DNA of 61,500 bases from an uncultured Acidimicrobiia bacterium (GTDB lineage Bacteria; Actinomycetota; Acidimicrobiia; Spongiisociales; UBA4744), in the NCBI GenBank assembly GCA_964383535.1, contig CAYLHS010000003.1, positions 1 to 61,500 of the forward strand, read 5' to 3'. Shown here piece by piece: positions 2,364 to 49,657 of the stretch; positions within the stretch are counted from its first letter, which is position 1, and every line of letters starts with the position of its first letter. Below the pieces are notes generated by a model, which ran no database searches, was not told the origin of the DNA, and saw only the letters and a list, made by a program, of their open reading frames with translations. Position numbers and translations under genes: made by a program.

Positions 2364-4031
2364 ATGAGAGCCTCGCGATACCTCCCGGCCACATCGTGGC
2401 TTCCTCGCTATCGACGCGCGTGGCTCAGACCTGACCTGATCGCCGGTCTCACCCTGTGGGCGGTGCTCGTCCCCGAGGCCATGGCCTACGCCGGTATCGC
2501 AGGCGTCGACCCCGTCATCGGCCTCTACACGGTCCCCCTCCCCTTGCTCGCCTATGCCCTGTTCGGCAGCTCGCGCAGCATGGTGGTCGGCACCGACTCG
2601 GCCACCGCGCTCGTCTCGGCGGCAACGATCGGCGCCCTCGCCGCGAGAGGCACGGCCGACTACCTCGCGTTGACATCGGCGCTCGCCATTCTCGTCGGCC
2701 TCCTCTTCCTCCTCTTCGGTCTTCTTCGTCTCGGGTGGGTTGCAGACTTCATCTCGCGCCCTGTCATGCAGGGGTTCATCGCGGGGGTCGTGCTCGTCAC
2801 GATCATTGGCCAGGTCCCCACCCTCCTCGGTCTCACCATCCACAGAGGCCGGTTCTTCGGTGAGGTGTGGAACGTGATCCGTGCACTCGGCGGCGTCGAC
2901 CCGGCGACCGTCGCCGTCGGCCTCTTCAGCCTCGCACTCCTCGCAAGTCTCAGAAGGTACGCACCGAAGGTGCCTGCAGCATTGACCACTGTGGTCCTCG
3001 CGATCGCCGTGGTCGTGGCCTTCGACCTCGAACGCCACGGCGTCTCGACGGTCGGTCACATTCCCTCCGGGTTCCCCGATCTTGGGCTGCCCTCCGTGGA
3101 TGCCGGCACCTACGGAACGCTCCTGTCGGGAGCTCTCGCAGTCGTTCTGCTCGGCTACGCGGAGACGCTCGGGTGCGCCAAGACGGCGTCCGCGCAGACC
3201 GGTGAGACGTCGGATCCCAATCAGGAACTCCTCGCGCTCGGTGCCGCAAACATCGGCAGCGGTCTGAGTGGCGGCTTCGTCGCCGTCGGCAGCTTCTCGA
3301 AGACGGCTGTCGCGCTGGCTGCCGGAGTGAGGAGCCAGCTCGGGTATCTCATCAGCGCAGCGCTCGTCATCGGCACACTGCTCTTCCTGACACCGGCCTT
3401 CACCCACCTGCCCGATGCAGCTCTTGCAGCAGTCGTGATCGAAGCCATGCTGGCGCTCGCGAAGCCAAGCTACTTCACTCGACTCGCCCGAATCTCCACA
3501 CCGGAGCTTCTCCTCGCGCTCGTCGCGATGTTCGGCGTCCTCGTACTGGGTGTGCTACCCGGAATCGGTGCCGGCGTCGCCCTCGACATCCTCCTGTTGA
3601 TCCGAGGTGCCAGCCGGCCTCGCGTCGCCGTACTCGGCAAGACCGCCGGCCACGTCTACCAGGATGTCTCGCTGCATCCCGAAGGAGAGACGGTCCCCGG
3701 CCTCCTGGTGTTCCGGTTCGAGGCGCCCCTGATCTTCACCAACGCCGGGTATTTCGTCGAAGAGGTGGAACGGCTCGTGGTGGAGAGAAAGTCCAAAGCG
3801 GTCCTCGTCGACGCAGAAGGCATCAACGGACTCGACTCCACAGCGGCCGAACGTCTCCTCGACCTCCACCGACATCTCGAGCACCGCGGTATCGAGCTGA
3901 GTTTCGCCCGGGTGAGAGACCCGGTGCGGGAAGTGATGCACTCGAGCGGGGTCCTCTCGGCGGTTGGGAGCGACCACCTCTACGGATCGATCACGAGCGG
4001 TATCAAGGCCTACAAGCGCGAGCTCTCCTGA
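2364..4031 (+). CDS. SulP/SLC26 anion permease with STAS domain
   Basis: DLIAGLTLWAVLVPEAMAYA, LFGSSRSMVVG, NQELLALGAANI; STAS FRFEAPLIFTNA...LDST. Confidence 0.92.
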   Translation: MRASRYLPATSWLPRYRRAWLRPDLIAGLTLWAVLVPEAMAYAGIAGVDPVIGLYTVPLPLLAYALFGSSRSMVVGTDSATALVSAATIGALAARGTADYLALTSALAILVGLLFLLFGLLRLGWVADFISRPVMQGFIAGVVLVTIIGQVPTLLGLTIHRGRFFGEVWNVIRALGGVDPATVAVGLFSLALLASLRRYAPKVPAALTTVVLAIAVVVAFDLERHGVSTVGHIPSGFPDLGLPSVDAGTYGTLLSGALAVVLLGYAETLGCAKTASAQTGETSDPNQELLALGAANIGSGLSGGFVAVGSFSKTAVALAAGVRSQLGYLISAALVIGTLLFLTPAFTHLPDAALAAVVIEAMLALAKPSYFTRLARISTPELLLALVAMFGVLVLGVLPGIGAGVALDILLLIRGASRPRVAVLGKTAGHVYQDVSLHPEGETVPGLLVFRFEAPLIFTNAGYFVEEVERLVVERKSKAVLVDAEGINGLDSTAAERLLDLHRHLEHRGIELSFARVRDPVREVMHSSGVLSAVGSDHLYGSITSGIKAYKRELS

Positions 4032-5146: not shown

Positions 5147-5926
5147 TCACGAACCCTGCCACACGGGTGGTCGCTTCTCCTTGAACGCGGCGACGCCCTC
5201 GGCCGCGTCCTGGGTGGTGCAGAGGGCGGCAAATGCTCCGTTCATGTACGACATCGCGCTGCCAAACGCGAGATCGGCGGCCGCGTAGAAGGATGTCTTC
5301 GCTGACCGCAGCGCGACCTGGCTCTTCTCGGCGAGCTTCCGCGCCCAAGCCCTTGTCTCTTCCTCGAGAGCATCGTCCGGGACGACACGGTTGATCAGTC
5401 CGATCTCGGCGGCGGTAGCAGCCGAAATCAGCTCACCGAAGTAGAGCAGCTCGAGCGCCTTCTTTCGTCCCACCGAGCGCGACACCGGAATGACCGGACC
5501 AACACAGTTGAGGCCAACGTTGATCGCCGTCAACCCGAACCTGGCGCTTTCGGCCGCGACGGCGAGGTCCGCAGCGGCAACGGTGCCCGCACCATTGGCG
5601 ACTGCGACCCCGTGAACCTGAGCGATGATGGGTTTGGAGATCGCCATCATCGTCGCCAGCGGACGCTCCATGAGATCGGTCCACGCGCGGTACTCCTGCT
5701 CCGACTTGCCGGGGAACTCGTCGAGGTCGATGCCAGCGCAGAAGACCCTTCCGGCACCACGCAGGATGATCGCGTGCACGAGCCGTTCTCCGTCAAGTTG
5801 CCTCAGCGCAGCATCGAACTGGGAGGCGAGCGGGGTGTTGAACGTATTGAGCTTGTCAGGACGGTTCAGGGTCAGGATCCCGACGGCATCCTCGCCGACC
5901 TCGACAGACACGACGTCGAACTCCAC
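5147..5926 (-). CDS. Enoyl-CoA hydratase/isomerase family
   Basis: [34 protein letters not shown] start placed after a GGGAGG SD. Confidence 0.88.
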
Positions 5927-6031
5927 GGCTTCCTCCCGACTCGACAATCGGCTCACCCTACCGCGCCCCAGCAGCCCCTCACCGGTGTCCCCCGAGCGCG
6001 AGTCATCTACCATCCCGGGAAGGAGGCCTGC

Positions 6032-6586
6032 GTGATCTTTTCAGACCGAACGATCAAGGAAGCGCTCACCGCTGGGCGCATCGTCATCGACCCATTCGAC
6101 GAGTCCTTCGTGCAACCGTCGAGCGTAGATCTTCGCGTCGATCGGTTCTTCAGAGTCTTCGAGAACCACCGGTACCCGCAGATCGACCCCAAGCAGCCGC
6201 AAGACGACCTGACCACCTTGGTGGAGACCTCGGACAACGATCCGTTCATTCTGCATCCAGGGGAGTTCGTGCTCGGATCCACGCTGGAACGAGTCGGTCT
6301 CGGCGATGACGTCGTCGCCCGTCTCGAAGGCAAGTCCAGCCTCGGCAGGTTAGGTCTGCTCATTCATTCGACCGCTGGGTTCGTCGACCCGGGTTTCGAC
6401 GGCTATCTCACGCTCGAGTTGTCCAACGTCGCCAAGCTCCCAATCGCCATCTATCCGGGCATGAAGATCGGACAGATCTCGTTCTACGAGCTCACGACAC
6501 CCGCAGAGCACCCCTACGGCGAGGCGGGCGGCAAATACCAAGGTCAGCGGGGGCCGACCCCGAGCAGAATTCATCAGGACTTCTAG
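6032..6586 (+). CDS. dcd: dCTP deaminase
   Basis: [48 protein letters not shown] 6032 after AGGAGG. Confidence 0.93.
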
Positions 6587-6756: not shown

Positions 6757-7524
6757 TCACACATCCAGCTTCACTGCATGGGCCAGTCGTACCTGTGTGA
6801 TGGACACCAGTCCCTTGGCAACCGCCTCGACATCCGTACCCGCCAGATCACCCCGCACCCGCAGGCCGGTCGAGAAGTCATGGATGAACACGTCGGGTCG
6901 TATCTCGCGAAAGATCCGGTCGTAGCCCGTTTTCGCGAGGTCGGTGAATACCCGCGGTGTATCGACGGTGGCGTTCGTATCGAAGTTCACGTTCAGCAGG
7001 TCGACGCCCTCTGGGAACCCGTCGCGTCGCACCGTCGTGACGATATCGGCGCTCACGCCGGCAGCCCTCGGCCACAGATCGGCCTCCTCGCCTGCCCACA
7101 CACGCTCCGACCAGCCCCGATGGTCCCGGGTCACGCCCGTAGAGAACGCGAGTGCCGGAATTCCGGCGATCCAGCCCTCCGCTGCTGCACCAGCGGTTCC
7201 GCTCGATAGAAAGAAGGCGAGACTGTCGTTGAGTCCGACGTTGATCCCCGACACCACCATGTCGGGAGCCTCGCCGAAGAGAGAGTGCACGCCAAGTTGG
7301 GTGCAGTCGGCCGGAAACCCGTCGGCAACGGCTATCTCCATCCCCTCGCGCACGACCCGCGTCACCCTGATCTCACCGAAGCGGGTGATGGCCTTTCCGA
7401 TCCAGCTCCGCTCCCGATCCGGAACCACGACTCTCACATCGGTGATCTCACGCAACGCCCTCATGAACGGCAACAACGCAGGGGAGTCGACACCGTCATC
7501 ATTGGTCACCAGTAGGTATCCCAT
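6757..7524 (-). CDS. surE: 5'/3'-nucleotidase SurE
   Basis: LLVTNDDGVDS, PDRERSWIGKAIT, GFPADC, VVSGINVG, SSGTAGAA; start set at MGYLLV (7524), not the track start at 7770. Confidence 0.9.
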   Translation of the reverse strand: MGYLLVTNDDGVDSPALLPFMRALREITDVRVVVPDRERSWIGKAITRFGEIRVTRVVREGMEIAVADGFPADCTQLGVHSLFGEAPDMVVSGINVGLNDSLAFFLSSGTAGAAAEGWIAGIPALAFSTGVTRDHRGWSERVWAGEEADLWPRAAGVSADIVTTVRRDGFPEGVDLLNVNFDTNATVDTPRVFTDLAKTGYDRIFREIRPDVFIHDFSTGLRVRGDLAGTDVEAVAKGLVSITQVRLAHAVKLDV

Positions 7525-7548
7525 CGCCGGCACAGGGTACCCGGAACG

Positions 7549-7580
7549 CCAGGAACCCCCGGTATCCCGGGGGTTCCTGG
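7549..7580. terminator. Perfect 14-bp hairpin (U-tail-less terminator candidate)
   Basis: CCAGGAACCCCCGG-tatc-CCGGGGGTTCCTGG. Confidence 0.6.
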
Positions 7581-7754
7581 AGTCCTCGGCGAGTTGGAGG
7601 AAGGGGGGACTCCGTTGTGCTCTCTTCGAGGACGCTGCCGGAGTAGACATCGGCAGAACAGCCACGAGACTTGAGGCGTTCACGAAGCACCCCCAGCCGG
7701 GAGGGAGTGGCTGAGGGTGCTTGCGTTCGAACTCGCCAGGGTGCCCAGCGGAAT
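7549..7754 (-). ncRNA. Candidate structured RNA (Ms1/6S-like architecture) or long structured leader
   Basis: Own promoter, closing stem 7730-7740 with 7584-7595, internal hairpins, and a 14-bp terminal hairpin; see findings. Confidence 0.5.
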
Positions 7755-7760
7755 GGCCCA

Positions 7761-7789
7761 ATTCTATCATGAGGACGTTATTACCCCAA
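7761..7789 (-). promoter_or_regulatory. Sigma-A type promoter with extended -10
   Basis: Minus strand TTGGGG-17 bp-TAGAAT, with TG-n immediately before the -10. Confidence 0.6.
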
Positions 7790-7879
7790 TGCTCCTGGCC
7801 AGGCAGCTACTTATGCTGGAAGGCACGTCTCGTCAGAAGTGAGTAGCGAGATCAGACATCATTCTGATAGAGTTTGGTT

Positions 7880-8824
7880 ATGCTCAATCCGAGAGAACTC
7901 CAGATCTTCCTCGCAGCAGCCGAAACCGAGAACTTCTCTGAAGCCGCCCGCCGGCTGAACATCTCACAACCGGCCATCTCGATGCAGATCAGGTCGCTCG
8001 AAGAGAAACTGGACATGCCGCTCTTCACGCGGACGGGAAGGCAGGTGACCCTGACGGACTCGGGCCGGGTTCTGGTCCCCATGGCGCGAGACGTCATCGA
8101 TAACACCATCCGTCTCGAAGAGGCGATGGCTTCGCTTCAAGGTGACGTTGTCGGGGTTCTCAAGCTCGGTTGCAGTACCGCCGCCGGCAAGTACGTGGTC
8201 CCTCGGTTGATGGCTGGCTTCCACACTCGCTACCCAAAAGTCGGACTCGTGTGCGATGTCTCTGGCCGGCGCGAAGCACTCCAAAGGCTGCGTGATGGAG
8301 AAGTACTCCTCGCGATGACGAGTCTCCGTGAACCGTACAAGGGCATCGAGTACCGGCCATTCCTGACAGATCGAATCGTCCTGATCGTTCCGCCAGATCA
8401 TCCATGGGCGGCGCTGGAGAGACCGCTGAAGCCGAAGGAGTTGCTGTCGGGCCAGTTCATTCTTCGTGAGTCCATGTCCGGAACTCGATCCGCCGTTGCG
8501 GAAGGGCTTTCGTGGCACGACATGTCCCTCGACGATCTCGAACGCGTCATGGTGCTCGGCAACTCGGAAGCGATCTGTGCAGCCGTGCAGGAGAAGATCG
8601 GCGTTGCGTTCGTCTCGACGTCCGTCGCTTGCGAAGCCACCAAGGCCGGCACGGTGGTCCCCGTGTCCATCGACGGCATGGATCTGACGACCACCCTCTA
8701 TCTAGCTCGCGACACCGACCGGCCGGCGACGCGCTCGCAGGCCGCATTCTGGGAGTTCGCGTTCGCGCCGGAGAACGAACACATCCGCACCAGGCCGAGC
8801 CTGCCAGCAGATCGAATCTGCTGA
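7880..8824 (+). CDS. LysR family transcriptional regulator (CysL/CmpR-like)
   Basis: LQIFLAAAETENFSEAARRLNISQPAISMQIRSLEEKLDMPLFTR HTH plus substrate-binding domain. Confidence 0.92.
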   Translation: MLNPRELQIFLAAAETENFSEAARRLNISQPAISMQIRSLEEKLDMPLFTRTGRQVTLTDSGRVLVPMARDVIDNTIRLEEAMASLQGDVVGVLKLGCSTAAGKYVVPRLMAGFHTRYPKVGLVCDVSGRREALQRLRDGEVLLAMTSLREPYKGIEYRPFLTDRIVLIVPPDHPWAALERPLKPKELLSGQFILRESMSGTRSAVAEGLSWHDMSLDDLERVMVLGNSEAICAAVQEKIGVAFVSTSVACEATKAGTVVPVSIDGMDLTTTLYLARDTDRPATRSQAAFWEFAFAPENEHIRTRPSLPADRIC

Positions 8825-8828
8825 TCGG

Positions 8829-9680
8829 ATGAACCGATCCCGCCTTGTGCTGGTCGCTGTCATGGCGGCTCTCGCTGCCGCGTGGGGAACCATCCCCCTG
8901 ATCGTGCGATCGGTGCCCCTGTCTTCTCAGCAGCTCGCCGCGCTCAGGCTGTGGTTCGGTGCCTTGACAGTGCTGAGCATCTTGGCCGTCAGAGGGGATC
9001 TGCGGCTACGGCGCACCGACCCGATCGCGCGTATCGCCGGCCTTGGGGTACTCCTTGCGATCCACTGGGCGGCCTTCTTCTGGGCCATCGACACGACCAC
9101 CGTCGCCGTAGCCATCGTTGTCGTCTACCTGGGTCCGGTGGCGATCGCCGCGCTCTCCCCCAAGATCCTCGGGGAACCCCTCCGCGCTGGATCGGTCGTC
9201 GGTCTGGCCGTCGCGCTCGGCGGCGTGATTCTCGTTGCGCGTCCACACGGCGGGGCAACTGTCGAAGGAGTCGTCGCCGCGCTCATCGCAGCGGCGACAT
9301 TCGCTGCGATGGTCCTCATCGGCAAGCCCGCGGCCCAAGCAGTCGGCGGGTTGAAGCTGGCGGGACTGCAAATGACGGTCGCGGCGATCGCCTCGACCCC
9401 GTGGGCGGTGTCGGCACTCCCAGACATCCCATCACACTGGTGGCAGATCTCCGTCCTCGGGATCGGCCTCACCGGGGTAGGCCTGATGGTCTACTGGTCG
9501 CTGATCAGCATCCTGCCCGTCACGACCGTCGCGATCACCTCCTACATCGAACCGGCATCCGCAGTGATATGGGCAGCGGTTTTCCTCTCTGAGCCGGGTG
9601 ACCTCCTGTCATGGTTCGGAGTGGCATTGGTGATCGGCGCCGGCATCGCGACGGGAAGACCGGAAAGGCCCACGATCTAA
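8829..9680 (+). CDS. EamA/DMT family transporter
   Basis: About 10 hydrophobic segments in two EamA repeats; [13 protein letters not shown]. Confidence 0.85.
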
Positions 9681-9797: not shown

Positions 9798-10943
9798 TCA
9801 GCCCCTCCTGAAGATGGCTGCGGCCCCCATGCCTCCGCCGATGCACATGCTCACAATGCCGTACTCGACGTCCCGACGCCTCATCTCGTGCAGCAGCGTC
9901 GCAGTGAGCTTGGCGCCGGTGCACCCCAGCGGGTGGCCGAGTGCAATCGCCCCACCGTTGACGTTCACCTTCTCGGGGTCGATGCCGAGCTCGCGTACGC
10001 AGTAGACGGCCTGGCTGGCAAAGGCCTCGTTCAGCTCGATGAGGCCGATATCGTCGAGGGACATCCCGGCTGCCTTGAGTGCTTTCGGAATGGCGACCGA
10101 CGGTCCGATGCCCATGATCGCCGGGTCCACCCCCGCAACCTGGAACGTGATGAGCTCCCCGAGCGGTTCGAAGCCCAGCTCGCTCGCTCGCTCCTTCGTC
10201 ATGAGAAGCTCGATGGCCGCGCCGTCGGACATCTGCGACGAGTTGCCTGCCGTCGATGTCCCGTTGACCTTGAACGCAGGCCTCAGCTTCGCGAGCCCGT
10301 CCAAGGTGCTCTCACGGGGCCCGTCGTCCGTGTCATACGTGAATTCCCTCCCGTCTGCTCGAACGGTCACCGGAATGATCTCATCGACGAACCTGCCCGC
10401 CTGCTGCGCAGCGACGGCCCGTCGCTGCGACTCGAGCGCAAAGCGGTCCTGCTCTTCTCGGCTCACGCTGAAGCGCTCGGCGACGTTCTCGCTGGTCATC
10501 CCCATCGACTCGTAGGCAGTGGGCATGTGCTCGGCCAGCCACGGGTTCGGCGCCGGCTTGTTGCCGCCCATGGGGACCATGGTCATCGACTCGACTCCGC
10601 CCGTCAGCACGATGTCAGAGAAGCCGGCGGAGATGTGCGCTGCCCCGGTCGCGAGCGTCTGCAGTCCGGAGCTGCAGAAGCGGTTCATCGTCATGGCCGG
10701 CGTCTCGAACGGGATGCCTGCCCTGAGCGCCGCGATCCTGCCCACGTTCATCCCCTGCTCACCTTCCGGCATGGCACATCCGATGATCACATCGTCGATC
10801 GACGCTGGATCGAGCTCGGGGGTGCGCTCCAGGAAGCCTTGGATGAGCAAGGCAAGCAGCTCATCGGGTCGGGTCTCTCGTAGCGACCCTTTGTACGCTT
10901 TGCCGACCGCTGTCCGGTAGGCGTGGGTGACGACAACGCTCAT
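9798..10943 (-). CDS. fadA: Acetyl-CoA C-acyltransferase (thiolase)
   Basis: [43 protein letters not shown]. Confidence 0.93.
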
Positions 10944-25177: not shown

Positions 25178-25250
25178 GTTAGCCCGACCATAGCGACCGT
25201 CTCTCCCCGAGAGACGGTCGTGCCGGTGTGGAAGGTGTAGCCTCTACCCA

Positions 25251-49596: not shown

Positions 49597-49657
49597 CGGC
49601 GTCAGGATAGGCCGGGGACGCCTGGCGCCCGTCCCCGGCCAGTTGCCCCACTCCACC

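What the first reader, a model, noticed from the sequence alone, without database searches (positions are those of the whole stretch)
7549..7789. Unannotated ~205-nt structured RNA with its own promoter and terminator (Ms1/6S-like candidate)
Seen on the minus strand: TTGGGG-17bp-TAGAAT with an extended TGn, so the predicted TSS is near 7754. The 5' segment CCUGGCGAGUU (7740-7730) pairs with AACUCGCCGAGG (7595-7584) as a closing stem. Inside is a 14-bp hairpin with a C-rich loop ACUCCCUCCC (7685-7722) and an irregular stem capped by CUGCCG/CGGCAG (7635-7656). A pyrimidine-rich strand CCCCCCUUCCUCC sits in the bubble, and a perfect 14-bp hairpin (7549-7580) ends the unit 24 nt before surE. Known: actinobacterial Ms1 RNA and 6S RNA are about 200-300 nt with a closing stem and a central bubble, and both bind RNA polymerase. 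Inference: this is an Ms1/6S-like RNA in an unusual surE/LysR context. It could instead be an sRNA using its anti-SD-like loop, or an attenuating leader for surE. The ORF track hides it inside a spurious SurE extension.
Basis: partly seen in the sequence, partly recalled or inferred. Interest (0 to 1): 0.78.

Follow-up and report, generated by a model that had tools for sequence, protein, structure and literature searches.

The report
New C-rich-loop small RNA beside LysR
The stretch between a LysR regulator gene and surE in this uncultured salt-marsh Acidimicrobiia contig holds a real, conserved gene for a structured RNA of about 200 nt that is in no RNA database; it is not 6S- or Ms1-like, and most likely it is a regulator-controlled small RNA that pairs with mRNAs through cytosine-rich loops.

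Summary
The unit recurs in 14 distinct versions from related uncultured Acidimicrobiia, always between a divergent LysR-type regulator gene and surE.

**What is conserved across the 14 versions:**
- an extended -10 promoter (TGnTAnnnT);
- a 5' hairpin that starts at the predicted transcription start;
- hairpin P1, with covariation and many G.U pairs, which presents an invariant CUCCCUCCC loop;
- a second hairpin, P4, which presents an invariant CCCCCUUC loop;
- a GC-rich 3' hairpin, P5, in which 10 of 14 pairs covary.

**What fails:**
They are lost without compensation elsewhere.
- Rfam gives no 6S, Ms1 or raiA match. Hairpin P1 alone gives a 6C match of 27.7 bits, below the threshold of 47.
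- There are no other copies, so this is not a REP element.

**surE does not need it.** surE has its own -10 box 6-9 nt before its start codon and no Shine-Dalgarno sequence. This holds in 20 loci, including those that lack the RNA.

**Best reading (inferred, not shown):** an independent small RNA controlled by the LysR-type regulator. It would work like 6C or "cuckoo"/CcsR RNAs, through anti-Shine-Dalgarno-like loops. No transcript data could be found. I rate it a new member of a known kind, of moderate interest.

The parts
7880..8824 (+). LysR-type regulator (LTTR) gene, 314 aa, followed 4 nt later by an EamA-family transporter gene (8829-9680); probably one operon
   Evidence: ORF list. NCBIfam: generic LTTR; the best match, LysR_Sec_metab, scores 217.8 bits, below its cut-off of 250. 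Orthologues at 68-96% identity are adjacent in every locus that has the RNA, and only there.
7865..7873 (+). Extended -10 (TGATAGAGT) of lysR, 6 nt before its ATG at 7880, which implies a leaderless lysR mRNA
   Evidence: Read from the sequence. This stretch is largely invariant across the 14 loci. The promoter function is inferred.
7809..7815 (-). Conserved upstream box 1, CATAAGT, at about -61 to -55 from the RNA start; candidate LTTR recognition site
   Evidence: ATAA is invariant and ATAAG(T) nearly so in the 14 loci. An ATAAGT box also lies upstream of more distant LysR orthologues. Binding is inferred.
7777..7783 (-). Conserved upstream box 2, TAATAAC, at about -29 to -23 and 32 bp from box 1; candidate LTTR activation site
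   Evidence: (A/G)ATAA(C/G) is conserved in the 14 loci. Binding is inferred.
7761..7789 (-). Promoter of the RNA: -35 TTGGGG (7789-7784), TG (7769-7768), -10 TAGAAT (7766-7761)
   Evidence: TGnTAnnnT is present in 14 of 14 relatives at a constant distance from P1. The -35 is weak and variable.
7545..7754 (-). Predicted RNA of about 205-210 nt, from the predicted start at A7754 to just past the 3' hairpin
   Evidence: The predicted length is 206-214 nt in 11 of 14 relatives. The covariance model scores family members at 109-195 bits. Both ends are predicted, not mapped.
7734..7750 (-). P0, the 5'-proximal hairpin
   Evidence: A hairpin of 5-10 bp starts at nt 1-5 of the predicted start in 13 of 14 relatives, with unrelated sequences in different clades.
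7685..7722 (-). P1 hairpin with C-rich loop 1 (ACUCCCUCCC, 7708-7699)
   Evidence: 97.6% of cells are paired; 3 pairs change on both sides and 5 on one side. 25 G.U cells make it 97.6% paired on this strand against 83.9% on the other. The loop is almost invariant. Sub-threshold 6C match of 27.7 bits.
7670..7675 (-). Invariant CUCAAG in the linker; role unknown
   Evidence: Invariant in 14 of 14 relatives.
7635..7656 (-). P2 hairpin, which holds the invariant CCGAU (7653-7649)
   Evidence: The sequence motif is invariant, but the helix is only weakly supported (75.7% of cells paired, no change on both sides).
7582..7633 (-). P3 (GUCCUCG 7633-7627 with CGAGGAC 7588-7582), which encloses P4
   Evidence: Predicted independently by RNAalifold. 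97.4% of cells are paired but the sequence hardly varies. Both arms are missing together in the L088/L005/L075 clade.
7596..7613 (-). P4 hairpin (GGAG/CUCC) with C-rich loop 2 (UCCCCCCUUC, 7609-7600)
   Evidence: The sequence is invariant in 14 of 14 relatives, so there is no covariation. The stem lengthens to 5-9 bp in other clades. L006, L090 and L094 add a third hairpin with a C/U-rich loop.
7549..7580 (-). P5, a GC-rich 3' hairpin (14 bp, loop GAUA); terminator-like but without a U-tract
   Evidence: 10 of 14 pairs change on both sides and 93.6% of cells are paired. Stems are 10-15 bp in all 14 relatives. The terminator scanner did not call it because there is no run of T.
7534..7539 (-). 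surE's own -10-like box (TACCCT), 9 nt before the ATG at 7524; no Shine-Dalgarno sequence
   Evidence: G(G)TAnCCT lies at -12 to -15 in 20 of 20 surE loci, with or without the RNA. It stays next to surE when insertions separate it from P5 (L075, L094).
6757..7524 (-). surE (5'/3'-nucleotidase), true start ATG 7524; the 337-aa ORF that starts at 7770 is an artefact
   Evidence: TIGR00087 scores 163.5 bits, above its cut-off of 135.1. Homologues begin at MGYLL....

Best explanation
This is a separate gene for a structured small RNA of about 205 nt, transcribed on the minus strand from roughly 7754 to roughly 7545. It belongs with the divergent lysR-eamA operon rather than with surE.

**Proposed mechanism (inferred).**
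- The LysR-type regulator binds two conserved ATAAG/ATAAC boxes, at about -58 and -26, in the shared control region.
- When its unknown ligand is present, it switches on the RNA's extended -10 promoter. The ligand may be the metabolite handled by the co-transcribed EamA transporter.
- The RNA folds into a row of hairpins: P0 at the 5' end, then P1, P2 and P3 (which encloses P4).
- It ends at a very stable GC-rich hairpin (P5), which stops or stabilises the transcript.
- Two invariant cytosine-rich loops both contain the anti-Shine-Dalgarno core CCUCC. These are CUCCCUCCC on P1 and the P4 loop with its 3' arm, CCCCCUUC-CUCC.
- The loops pair with G-rich ribosome-binding regions of target mRNAs in trans and repress their translation, as the actinobacterial 6C RNA and the alphaproteobacterial 'cuckoo'/CcsR RNAs are thought to do.

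**Shown here:** conservation, the promoter motif, RNA-level structure on this strand, and the independence of the surE promoter.

**Inferred:** transcription itself, termination at P5, control by the LysR-type regulator, and the pairing mechanism and targets.
For: **Distribution**
- 14 distinct versions, all between lysR and surE.
- The RNA and lysR occur together. surE loci with SurE at 68% identity or less have neither; LysR orthologues at 65% or less have no RNA.

**Promoter and 5' end**
- The extended -10 TGnTAnnnT is present in 14 of 14 versions.
- The 5' hairpin starts at the predicted start in 13 of 14.

**Structure and covariation**
- RNAalifold on a plain MAFFT alignment finds P1, P3, P4 and the core of P5.
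- 92.4% of cells are paired against 85.9% in shuffles.
- 13 pairs change on both sides; 0 of 500 shuffles reach that.
- The covariation score is 0.247, against 0.015-0.109 for slid controls.
- 25 G.U cells in P1 favour this strand.

**Non-coding**
- The loops are invariant while the stems vary.
- A 1-nt indel inside the most conserved block, and other indels not divisible by 3, rule out coding.

**Independence from surE**
- surE has its own -10 box 6-9 nt from its start codon and no Shine-Dalgarno sequence in 20 of 20 loci, including those without the RNA.
- Insertions of about 40-85 nt can separate P5 from surE.
- The only two metatranscriptome fragments on this locus end at 7511 and 7515, next to the surE start, and none covers the RNA.

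**Regulator sites**
- Conserved boxes lie 32 bp apart at typical LTTR positions.

**Resemblance to known C-rich-loop RNAs**
- Hairpin P1 gives sub-threshold matches to 6C (27.7 bits) and CcsR1 (16.6 bits), both hairpin families with C-rich loops.
- 6C acts through C-rich loops on G-rich mRNA stretches (PMC7142372, citing Mai 2019).
- Cuckoo RNAs carry an anti-SD-like CCUCCUCCC motif in their hairpin loops (PMC4615179).
- gcvB is transcribed divergently from the LysR-type gcvA gene (PMC1557403).
Against: - There is no transcript evidence at all. No RNA run holds the stretch.
- P5 has no U-tract. From my own knowledge, such hairpins terminate poorly with mycobacterial RNA polymerase in vitro, so read-through into surE is possible.
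- Conservation goes well beyond the two loops: CUCAAG, CCGAU, GCGUCCUCG and ACGGAGU are invariant. That is more than a simple seed-pairing sRNA usually needs, and it hints at a protein or ligand partner.
- Target-site scans in the window are at chance level, and no target could be named.
- The RNA never occurs away from surE, so linkage to surE cannot be fully separated from linkage to lysR.
- The alignment holds only 14 sequences in about 4 clades, and the covariation alignment was fitted to the model.
Confidence: 0.45

Rival explanations
1. It is a cis-acting 5' leader or attenuator of surE. The LysR-type regulator drives a second, upstream surE promoter, and the structured leader decides at P5 whether transcription runs on into surE. 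The switch could be a riboswitch-like or a protein-dependent one.
For: - The RNA is always directly upstream of surE on the same strand.
- P5 lacks a U-tract, so it may be a conditional rather than a constitutive stop.
- Many invariant segments outside the loops would suit a ligand or protein binding site.
Against: - surE keeps its own -10 box 6-9 nt from the start codon in 20 of 20 loci, with or without the RNA. It has no Shine-Dalgarno sequence to sequester.
- Insertions of variable length separate P5 from surE.
- No conserved anti-terminator pairing was found; only generic C5/G5 tracts could pair.
- The RNA's presence tracks lysR, not surE.
Confidence: 0.2
2. It is a structured RNA that works by binding a protein or a small molecule rather than by pairing with mRNAs. 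One possibility is a sponge that presents several C/U-rich loops to an RNA-binding protein, or to the Shine-Dalgarno regions of many mRNAs at once.
For: - Two to three hairpins present C/U-rich loops.
- More than 50 invariant positions are spread over the whole RNA, including CUCAAG and CCGAU outside any supported helix.
Against: - No partner can be named, and there is no match to any known protein-binding RNA family.
- There are only two or three loops, far fewer than in CsrB-type sponges (my own knowledge).
- The RNA is not visibly abundant in the two metatranscriptomes.
Confidence: 0.15
3. It is a 6S- or Ms1-like RNA that binds RNA polymerase.
For: - The length of about 200 nt fits.
- In the window sequence alone, an 11-bp closing stem with an internal multiloop can form.
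Against: - Rfam gives no 6S or Ms1 match at E<=10 in the window or in two divergent relatives.
- The closing stem is not conserved and not compensated.
- The conserved fold is a set of separate hairpins.
- The narrow clade distribution and the link to a LysR-type regulator are unlike a housekeeping RNA.
- It was not detected where surE mRNA was.
Confidence: 0.03
4. It is not an RNA gene at all: DNA-level palindromes, a REP-type repeat, or only regulator binding sites.
For: Both large hairpins are near-palindromes, so the plus strand folds about as well (z -5.34).
Against: - There are no other copies in the window or in 54 sources.
- The G.U pairs of P1 would be A.C mismatches on the other strand or in DNA cruciforms.
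- The promoter orientation, the 5' hairpin and the covarying stems all point to an RNA on the minus strand.
Confidence: 0.03

Closest known systems
6C RNA (Rfam RF01066; B11/ncRv13660c of mycobacteria and other Actinobacteria)
   Same: - Same phylum.
- Hairpins whose loops hold six or more cytosines.
- Hairpin P1 aligns to the second 6C hairpin (27.7 bits in the window, 23.1 bits in L088).
- Same proposed mode of action: C-rich loops pair with G-rich mRNA stretches (PMC7142372, citing Mai 2019).
   Different: - The score is below the gathering threshold of 47, and only one of the two 6C hairpins is matched.
- This RNA is about 205 nt, against about 80 nt for 6C.
- The two C-rich hairpins lie about 70 nt apart, with further conserved elements between them (CUCAAG, CCGAU, P3).
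- The gene neighbourhood differs (lysR/surE).
- It is found only in one Acidimicrobiia clade.
Cuckoo / CcsR RNAs of Alphaproteobacteria (RF02791 CcsR1; loop motif CCUCCUCCC)
   Same: - Modular hairpins with variable, covarying stems and an invariant anti-SD-like C/U-rich loop.
- Here the loop is CUCCCUCCC; in cuckoo RNAs it is CCUCCUCCC (PMC4615179).
- Weak CcsR1 match to hairpin P1 (16.6 bits).
   Different: - Far below the threshold of 65.3 bits.
- Different phylum.
- The two loops here differ from each other.
- The hairpins are not adjacent repeats of one module.
- Extra invariant single-stranded motifs are present.
- A single copy sits beside a LysR-type regulator gene.
Small RNA genes divergent from a LysR-type regulator gene: gcvA/gcvB, oxyR/oxyS, vtlR(lsrB)/abcR
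   Same: - The small RNA gene lies head to head with a LysR-type regulator gene.
- Conserved boxes lie in the shared control region at typical LTTR positions.
- gcvB is transcribed divergently from gcvA and needs it (PMC1557403). The oxyS and abcR cases are from my own knowledge.
   Different: - There is no sequence or structural relation to GcvB, OxyS or AbcR.
- Dependence on the regulator is untested here.
- The host is an Hfq-poor phylum (my own knowledge).
- The regulator is co-transcribed with an EamA transporter.
6S RNA and Ms1 RNA
   Same: Similar length, and the window sequence alone can draw a closing stem around a multiloop.
   Different: - No covariance-model match.
- The closing stem is not conserved.
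- There is no rod with a central bubble in the consensus fold.

Membership tests
6S RNA (RF00013) | Match to the Rfam covariance model at or above the gathering score | tested here: not met
   No 6S match at the gathering score in the whole window. None at E<=10 on the locus or on two divergent relatives.
6S RNA (RF00013) | A conserved long closing stem and terminal stem flanking a large central bubble (a rod that mimics an open promoter) | tested here: not met
   The closing stem scores 11 of 11 pairs only in the window and 0-6 of 11 in the more distant clades, with no compensating changes. The consensus is a set of separate hairpins.
6S RNA / Ms1 | Binds RNA polymerase holoenzyme (6S) or core (Ms1), and is abundant in stationary phase | not testable with these tools
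   Needs co-immunoprecipitation. The only hint is negative: the RNA is absent from two metatranscriptomes that hold surE reads.
Ms1 RNA | Match to the Rfam Ms1 model; about 300 nt; found in mycobacteria and close relatives | tested here: not met
   No Rfam match. The predicted length is about 205 nt. The hosts are Acidimicrobiia.
6C RNA (RF01066) | Match to the Rfam covariance model at or above the gathering score (47 bits) | tested here: not met
   Best scores are 27.7 bits (window 7682-7735) and 23.1 bits (L088). Only the second model hairpin aligns convincingly.
6C RNA (RF01066) | Two hairpins, each with a loop of six or more cytosines | tested here: met
   Loop 1 (ACUCCCUCCC) and loop 2 (UCCCCCCUUC) each hold 7 C in the window. 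Loop 1 is invariant in 13 of 14 versions (one C fewer in L085). Loop 2 is invariant except its second base, which is C, A or absent, so some relatives have 6 C. The two hairpins are about 70 nt apart, not adjacent.
6C RNA (RF01066) | Size of about 60-100 nt and the conserved 6C gene neighbourhood | tested here: not met
   The predicted length is 189-258 nt. The neighbourhood is lysR/surE in all 14 versions. The usual 6C neighbourhood is recalled from my own knowledge.
Cuckoo / CcsR RNAs (RF02791) | 2-4 adjacent hairpins, each with the loop motif CCUCCUCCC; covariance-model match | tested here: not met
   CcsR1 scores 16.6 bits against a threshold of 65.3. The loops are CUCCCUCCC and CCCCCUUC, not the exact motif, and the hairpins are not adjacent.
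raiA motif RNA (RF03072) | Match to the Rfam covariance model | tested here: not met
   Considered because it is about 200 nt and occurs in Actinobacteria (PMC10861870 surfaced). No match at E<=10.
Small RNA modules divergent from a LysR-type regulator gene (gcvA/gcvB type) | The small RNA gene lies head to head with the regulator gene and shares its control region | tested here: met
   The lysR -10 (7865-7873, + strand) and the RNA -10 (7761-7769, - strand) are about 96 bp apart. The arrangement is kept in all 14 loci.
Small RNA modules divergent from a LysR-type regulator gene (gcvA/gcvB type) | Regulator binding sites (recognition site near -65, activation site near -35) upstream of the small RNA promoter | tested here: inconclusive
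   Conserved ATAAG(T) at -61 to -55 and ATAA(C/G) at -29 to -23, 32 bp apart. No clear T-N11-A dyad was identified, and binding is untested.
Small RNA modules divergent from a LysR-type regulator gene (gcvA/gcvB type) | Transcription of the small RNA depends on the regulator | not testable with these tools
   Needs genetics or in-vitro transcription.
REP-type repeats | Many dispersed copies in the genome | tested here: not met
   No other copy of either hairpin arm occurs in the window above chance. The covariance model finds one copy per locus. Only 61.5 kb of this genome could be examined.

The most novel reading that the evidence does not exclude
The RNA may not be an ordinary seed-pairing sRNA. 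It could be a new class of structured regulatory RNA in Acidimicrobiia whose conserved core (CUCAAG, CCGAU, the P3/P4 junction) binds a protein or metabolite. Its anti-SD-mimicking loops could then act broadly on Shine-Dalgarno-led mRNAs. It sits between two genes that both appear to be leaderless, so an RNA of this kind would not touch its own regulator or surE. That would tie a metabolite-sensing LysR/EamA module to a global shift between Shine-Dalgarno-dependent and leaderless translation.
Probability: 0.08. Interest if true: 0.75.

Novelty: new member of a known kind. Interest (0 to 1): 0.4.

Why it matters
Acidimicrobiia are abundant in marine and marsh sediments, almost all are uncultured, and my literature searches found no small RNA described for them.

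- **A concrete candidate.** This is a well-delimited regulatory RNA for the class, with a promoter, a covarying structure and a linked regulator. It can be moved as a cassette (lysR, intergenic region, reporter) into a tractable actinobacterium.
- **A broader pattern.** If the C-rich-loop mechanism holds, the 6C/cuckoo principle of anti-SD-like loops on variable hairpins extends to a deep actinobacterial lineage. It would also add a case of a small RNA paired with a LysR-type regulator outside Proteobacteria.
- **Annotation.** The surE call on this contig is 82 codons too long, and both surE and lysR look leaderless.

Tried and rejected
**Known RNA families**
- 6S, Ms1 and raiA: rejected by Rfam searches at gathering and E<=10 thresholds on the window and two divergent relatives.
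- 6C and CcsR1 match only hairpin P1, below threshold.
- tRNA or tmRNA: none.

**Repeat element**
- REP or repeat family: rejected. The hairpin arms and the GGAAGGGGGG tail occur at chance frequency, and the covariance model finds one copy per locus.

- Counted on the alignment and rejected as a family feature.
- It also competes with P0 plus P3 in the window itself.

**Coding potential**
- A small protein inside the RNA is rejected. A 1-nt indel lies inside the most conserved block, and the other indels are not multiples of three.

**Transcript evidence**
- Only two low-depth metatranscriptomes hold this organism. Each has one fragment in surE and none on the RNA, even at 80% likeness.

**Targets**
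- Scans for GGGAGGGAG and GGAGGAAGGGGG in the window are at chance level. The one perfect site lies inside an ORF.

**Wider distribution**
- The metagenome pattern scan gave 43 hits. Only 9 were real, and all lay in the same gene context.
- LysR orthologues at 61-65% identity, and SurE homologues at 68% or less, lack the RNA.

**Anti-terminator**
- An alternative pairing for P5 was looked for by eye in the alignment and the single-sequence folds. Only non-specific C5/G5 tracts were found.
Full report
**1. What is in the sequence**

- TTGGGG (7789-7784), a 17-nt spacer, TG (7769-7768) and TAGAAT (7766-7761), with a likely start at A7754;
- a 14-bp hairpin at 7722-7685 with loop ACUCCCUCCC;
- CUGCCG/CGGCAG at 7656-7635;
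- CCCCCCUUCCUCC at 7608-7596;
- a perfect 14-bp hairpin at 7580-7549, ending 24 nt before surE;
- the complementarity of 7740-7730 with 7595-7584.

The 210-nt stretch folds far better than shuffles (-105.7 kcal/mol, z -5.55). The opposite strand does too (z -5.34), because the two large hairpins are near-palindromes. The 7549-7580 hairpin is the best inverted repeat in the whole window. The simple scanners called neither promoter nor terminator: the -35 matches the consensus at only 3 of 6 positions, and no run of T follows the hairpin.

The ORF that swallows the region (6757-7770, 337 aa) is what the gene caller produced for this contig (P0001). Nearly all listed SurE homologues are 252-299 aa and start at MGYLL.... 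The 'spurious extension' remark is therefore correct.

**2. Source and relatives**

The contig comes from salt-marsh metagenomes, and its relatives are uncultured Acidimicrobiia. I collected relatives in three ways:
- a genome scan with a SurE alignment;
- one metagenome scan with a two-motif DNA pattern (43 hits, of which only 9 were real);
- look-ups of SurE and LysR homologues.

Together these gave 14 distinct versions of the intergenic region. All have the same neighbourhood: thiolase, EamA, LysR, then the RNA, surE and dcd.

The RNA and lysR occur together:
- surE loci with SurE at 68% identity or less have neither;
- LysR orthologues at 61-65% identity, from other organisms, have no such RNA;
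- a covariance model of the element scores family members at 109-195 bits, and nothing else in 54 sources above the weak palindrome echo of P5 on the other strand.

It is single-copy, so it is not a REP element.

**3. Anatomy from comparison**

*Promoter and length.* An extended -10, TGnTAnnnT, is present in 14 of 14 versions at a near-constant distance from P1. The predicted length from the start to the 3' hairpin plus 8 nt is 206-214 nt in 11 of 14.

On the model-fitted alignment:
- 92.4% of cells are paired, against 85.9 +/- 0.7% in shuffles;
- 13 pairs change on both sides (0 of 500 shuffles reach that);
- the covariation score is 0.247, against 0.015-0.109 for partners slid by 1-3 columns.

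| Helix | Support (unless stated) |
|---|---|
| P0 (5' hairpin) | 5-10 bp, starts at nt 1-5 of the predicted start in 13 of 14 versions, with unrelated sequences between clades. Typical of a protected sRNA 5' end; also supports the start assignment. |
| P1 | 97.6% paired; 3 pairs change on both sides, 5 on one side |
| P2 | Weak: 75.7% paired, no change on both sides |
| P3 | 97.4% paired but almost invariant; both arms are missing together in the L088/L005/L075 clade |
| P4 | Four invariant pairs, so uninformative |
| P5 | 93.6% paired; 10 of 14 pairs change on both sides |

*Strand.* P1 holds 25 G.U cells. It is 97.6% paired on the minus strand and 83.9% on the other.

*Non-coding.* A 1-nt indel inside the most conserved block, and indels of 13 and 25 nt, exclude a coding explanation.

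*The closing stem.* This was the basis of the 6S/Ms1 analogy, and it fails:
- It scores 11 of 11 pairs in the window, 9-10 in four near-identical relatives, 5 in L004 and 0-6 elsewhere. The relatives that score 9-10 carry mismatching rather than compensating changes.
- Its 5' half is absent in L085, and its 3' half is deleted in one clade.
- In the window, folding 4 more nucleotides switches the optimum to P0 plus P3.

*Invariant sequence.* These segments do not vary:
- loop 1, CUCCCUCCC;
- the P4 hairpin CGGAGU(N)CCCCCUUCCUCC, whose loop is U(C/A)CCCCCUUC;
- CUCAAG;
- CCGAU.

Both C-rich elements contain CCUCC, the core of the 16S anti-Shine-Dalgarno sequence (my own knowledge). Three relatives add a third hairpin with a C/U-rich loop.

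**4. Relation to the neighbours**

*surE.*
- It has a -10-like box, G(G)TAnCCT, ending 6-9 nt before its start codon, and no Shine-Dalgarno sequence. This holds in 20 of 20 loci, including the 14 that lack the RNA.
- The box stays with surE when insertions of about 85 nt (L075) or about 40 nt (L094) separate it from P5.
- This is the signature of a leaderless gene with its own promoter, which is common in Actinobacteria (my own knowledge).
- The only two metatranscriptome fragments on the locus lie in surE and end at 7511 and 7515, just inside the start codon. None covers the RNA. This agrees with a leaderless surE but is anecdotal.

*lysR.*
- It also looks leaderless: TGATAGAGT at 7865-7873, then 6 nt, then the ATG at 7880. 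The sequence is largely invariant across the family.
- It is followed 4 nt later by an EamA-family transporter gene.

*Control region.* Between the two divergent -10 elements lie two conserved boxes, 32 bp apart. ATAAG(T) sits at about -61 to -55, and ATAA(C/G) at about -29 to -23 relative to the RNA start. These are the usual positions of LTTR recognition and activation sites (my own knowledge). An ATAAGT box also recurs upstream of more distant LysR orthologues. I infer, but cannot show, that the regulator controls the RNA promoter. The arrangement mirrors gcvA/gcvB (PMC1557403), and oxyR/oxyS and vtlR/abcR (my own knowledge).

**5. Mechanism**

*Best reading (confidence about 0.45).* This is an independent small RNA controlled by the LysR-type regulator. 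It ends at, or is stabilised by, P5. It uses its two invariant C-rich loops to pair with G-rich ribosome-binding regions of target mRNAs.
- This is how 6C RNA is reported to act (PMC7142372, citing Mai et al. 2019).
- It is also what is proposed for the cuckoo/CcsR RNAs with their CCUCCUCCC loops (PMC4615179).
- In keeping with this, hairpin P1 alone gives sub-threshold matches to 6C (27.7 bits in the window, 23.1 in L088; threshold 47) and to CcsR1 (16.6 bits; threshold 65.3).

*Weak points.*
- There is no transcript evidence.
- P5 has no U-tract.
- No targets could be identified; the scans are at chance level.
- Conservation beyond the loops is more than a seed-pairing sRNA needs.

*Rivals.*

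| Reading | Confidence | Main point |
|---|---|---|
| surE leader or attenuator | 0.20 | Weakened by the autonomous surE promoter and by the RNA tracking lysR |
| Protein- or ligand-binding RNA, or sponge | 0.15 | Suggested by the many invariant positions outside the loops |
| 6S/Ms1-like | 0.03 | No model match; closing stem not conserved |
| No RNA at all, or a DNA repeat | 0.03 | Single copy; G.U pairs favour an RNA on the minus strand |

**6. Comparison and novelty**

The element fails membership of 6S, Ms1, raiA, 6C and CcsR by covariance model. It shares the working principle of 6C and cuckoo RNAs (C-rich loops) and the gene arrangement of small RNAs paired with a LysR-type regulator. 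My literature searches found no Acidimicrobiia sRNA of this kind. I file it as a new family of a known kind, a bacterial regulatory small RNA.

Interest is moderate, at 0.4. It is a clean, testable candidate in an uncultured lineage, but it is neither mechanistically surprising nor supported by expression data. The most novel reading still open is a structured RNA with a protein or ligand partner whose anti-SD-like loops act broadly, sitting between leaderless genes. I give that about 0.08.

Noticed in passing
window 7534-7539 and 7522-7524; L001-L020 about 2986-3003: surE appears to be leaderless. A G(G)TAnCCT box ends 6-9 nt before the start codon and there is no Shine-Dalgarno sequence. This is conserved in 20 of 20 Acidimicrobiia surE loci down to 62% protein identity.
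   Followed up: yes
window 7865-7882: lysR also appears to be leaderless. An extended -10 (TGATAGAGT) lies 6 nt before the ATG, and the sequence is largely invariant across the family. It is almost identical to the RNA's own -10 (TGATAGAAT).
   Followed up: partly
L096:2277-2510, L097:2191-2510, L098:2400-2510, L100:700-920 (minus strand of each): LysR orthologues at 61-64% identity, from lower-GC organisms and in unrelated gene contexts, share a different conserved upstream element: TTGTGAACATTGTAAC(A/G)AA, followed by TATAAGTGTAAAG in three of the four (L098 has TATGAGTAAAG). It includes the same ATAAGT box and is probably the regulator's operator.
   Followed up: no
L075:1040-1125; L094:965-1010 (minus strand) and the 25-nt insertion after P1: Lineage-specific insertions carry their own small hairpins. 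L075 has about 85 nt between P5 and surE (GGACAG...CUGUCC). L094 has two extra hairpins after P5 and an insertion after P1.
   Followed up: partly
L006, L090, L094, between P4 and the 3' arm of P3: A third small hairpin, CCGG-CCUUU(U)CCCA-CCGG, with a C/U-rich loop is present only in these three relatives.
   Followed up: partly
window 5612-6586 (+): The longest ORF for the dCTP deaminase gene (324 aa) is also over-extended. Called homologues are 174-186 aa, and the conserved start is near 6017 (...[11 protein letters not shown]).
   Followed up: no
window 7202-7515: Two salt-marsh metatranscriptome runs each hold one read pair of this organism's surE mRNA. The upstream ends, at 7511 and 7515, lie just inside the start codon.
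   Followed up: partly
window 25194-25220, 10407-10429, 49610-49640: Other perfect short GC-rich hairpins (11-12 bp) occur elsewhere in the window. They may be terminators and were not examined.
   Followed up: no
window 7880-8821: The regulator's best NCBIfam match is the 'selenium metabolism-associated LysR' model, at 217.8 bits against a cut-off of 250. One database names an 84%-identical orthologue CmpR. Neither assignment is reliable.
   Followed up: no
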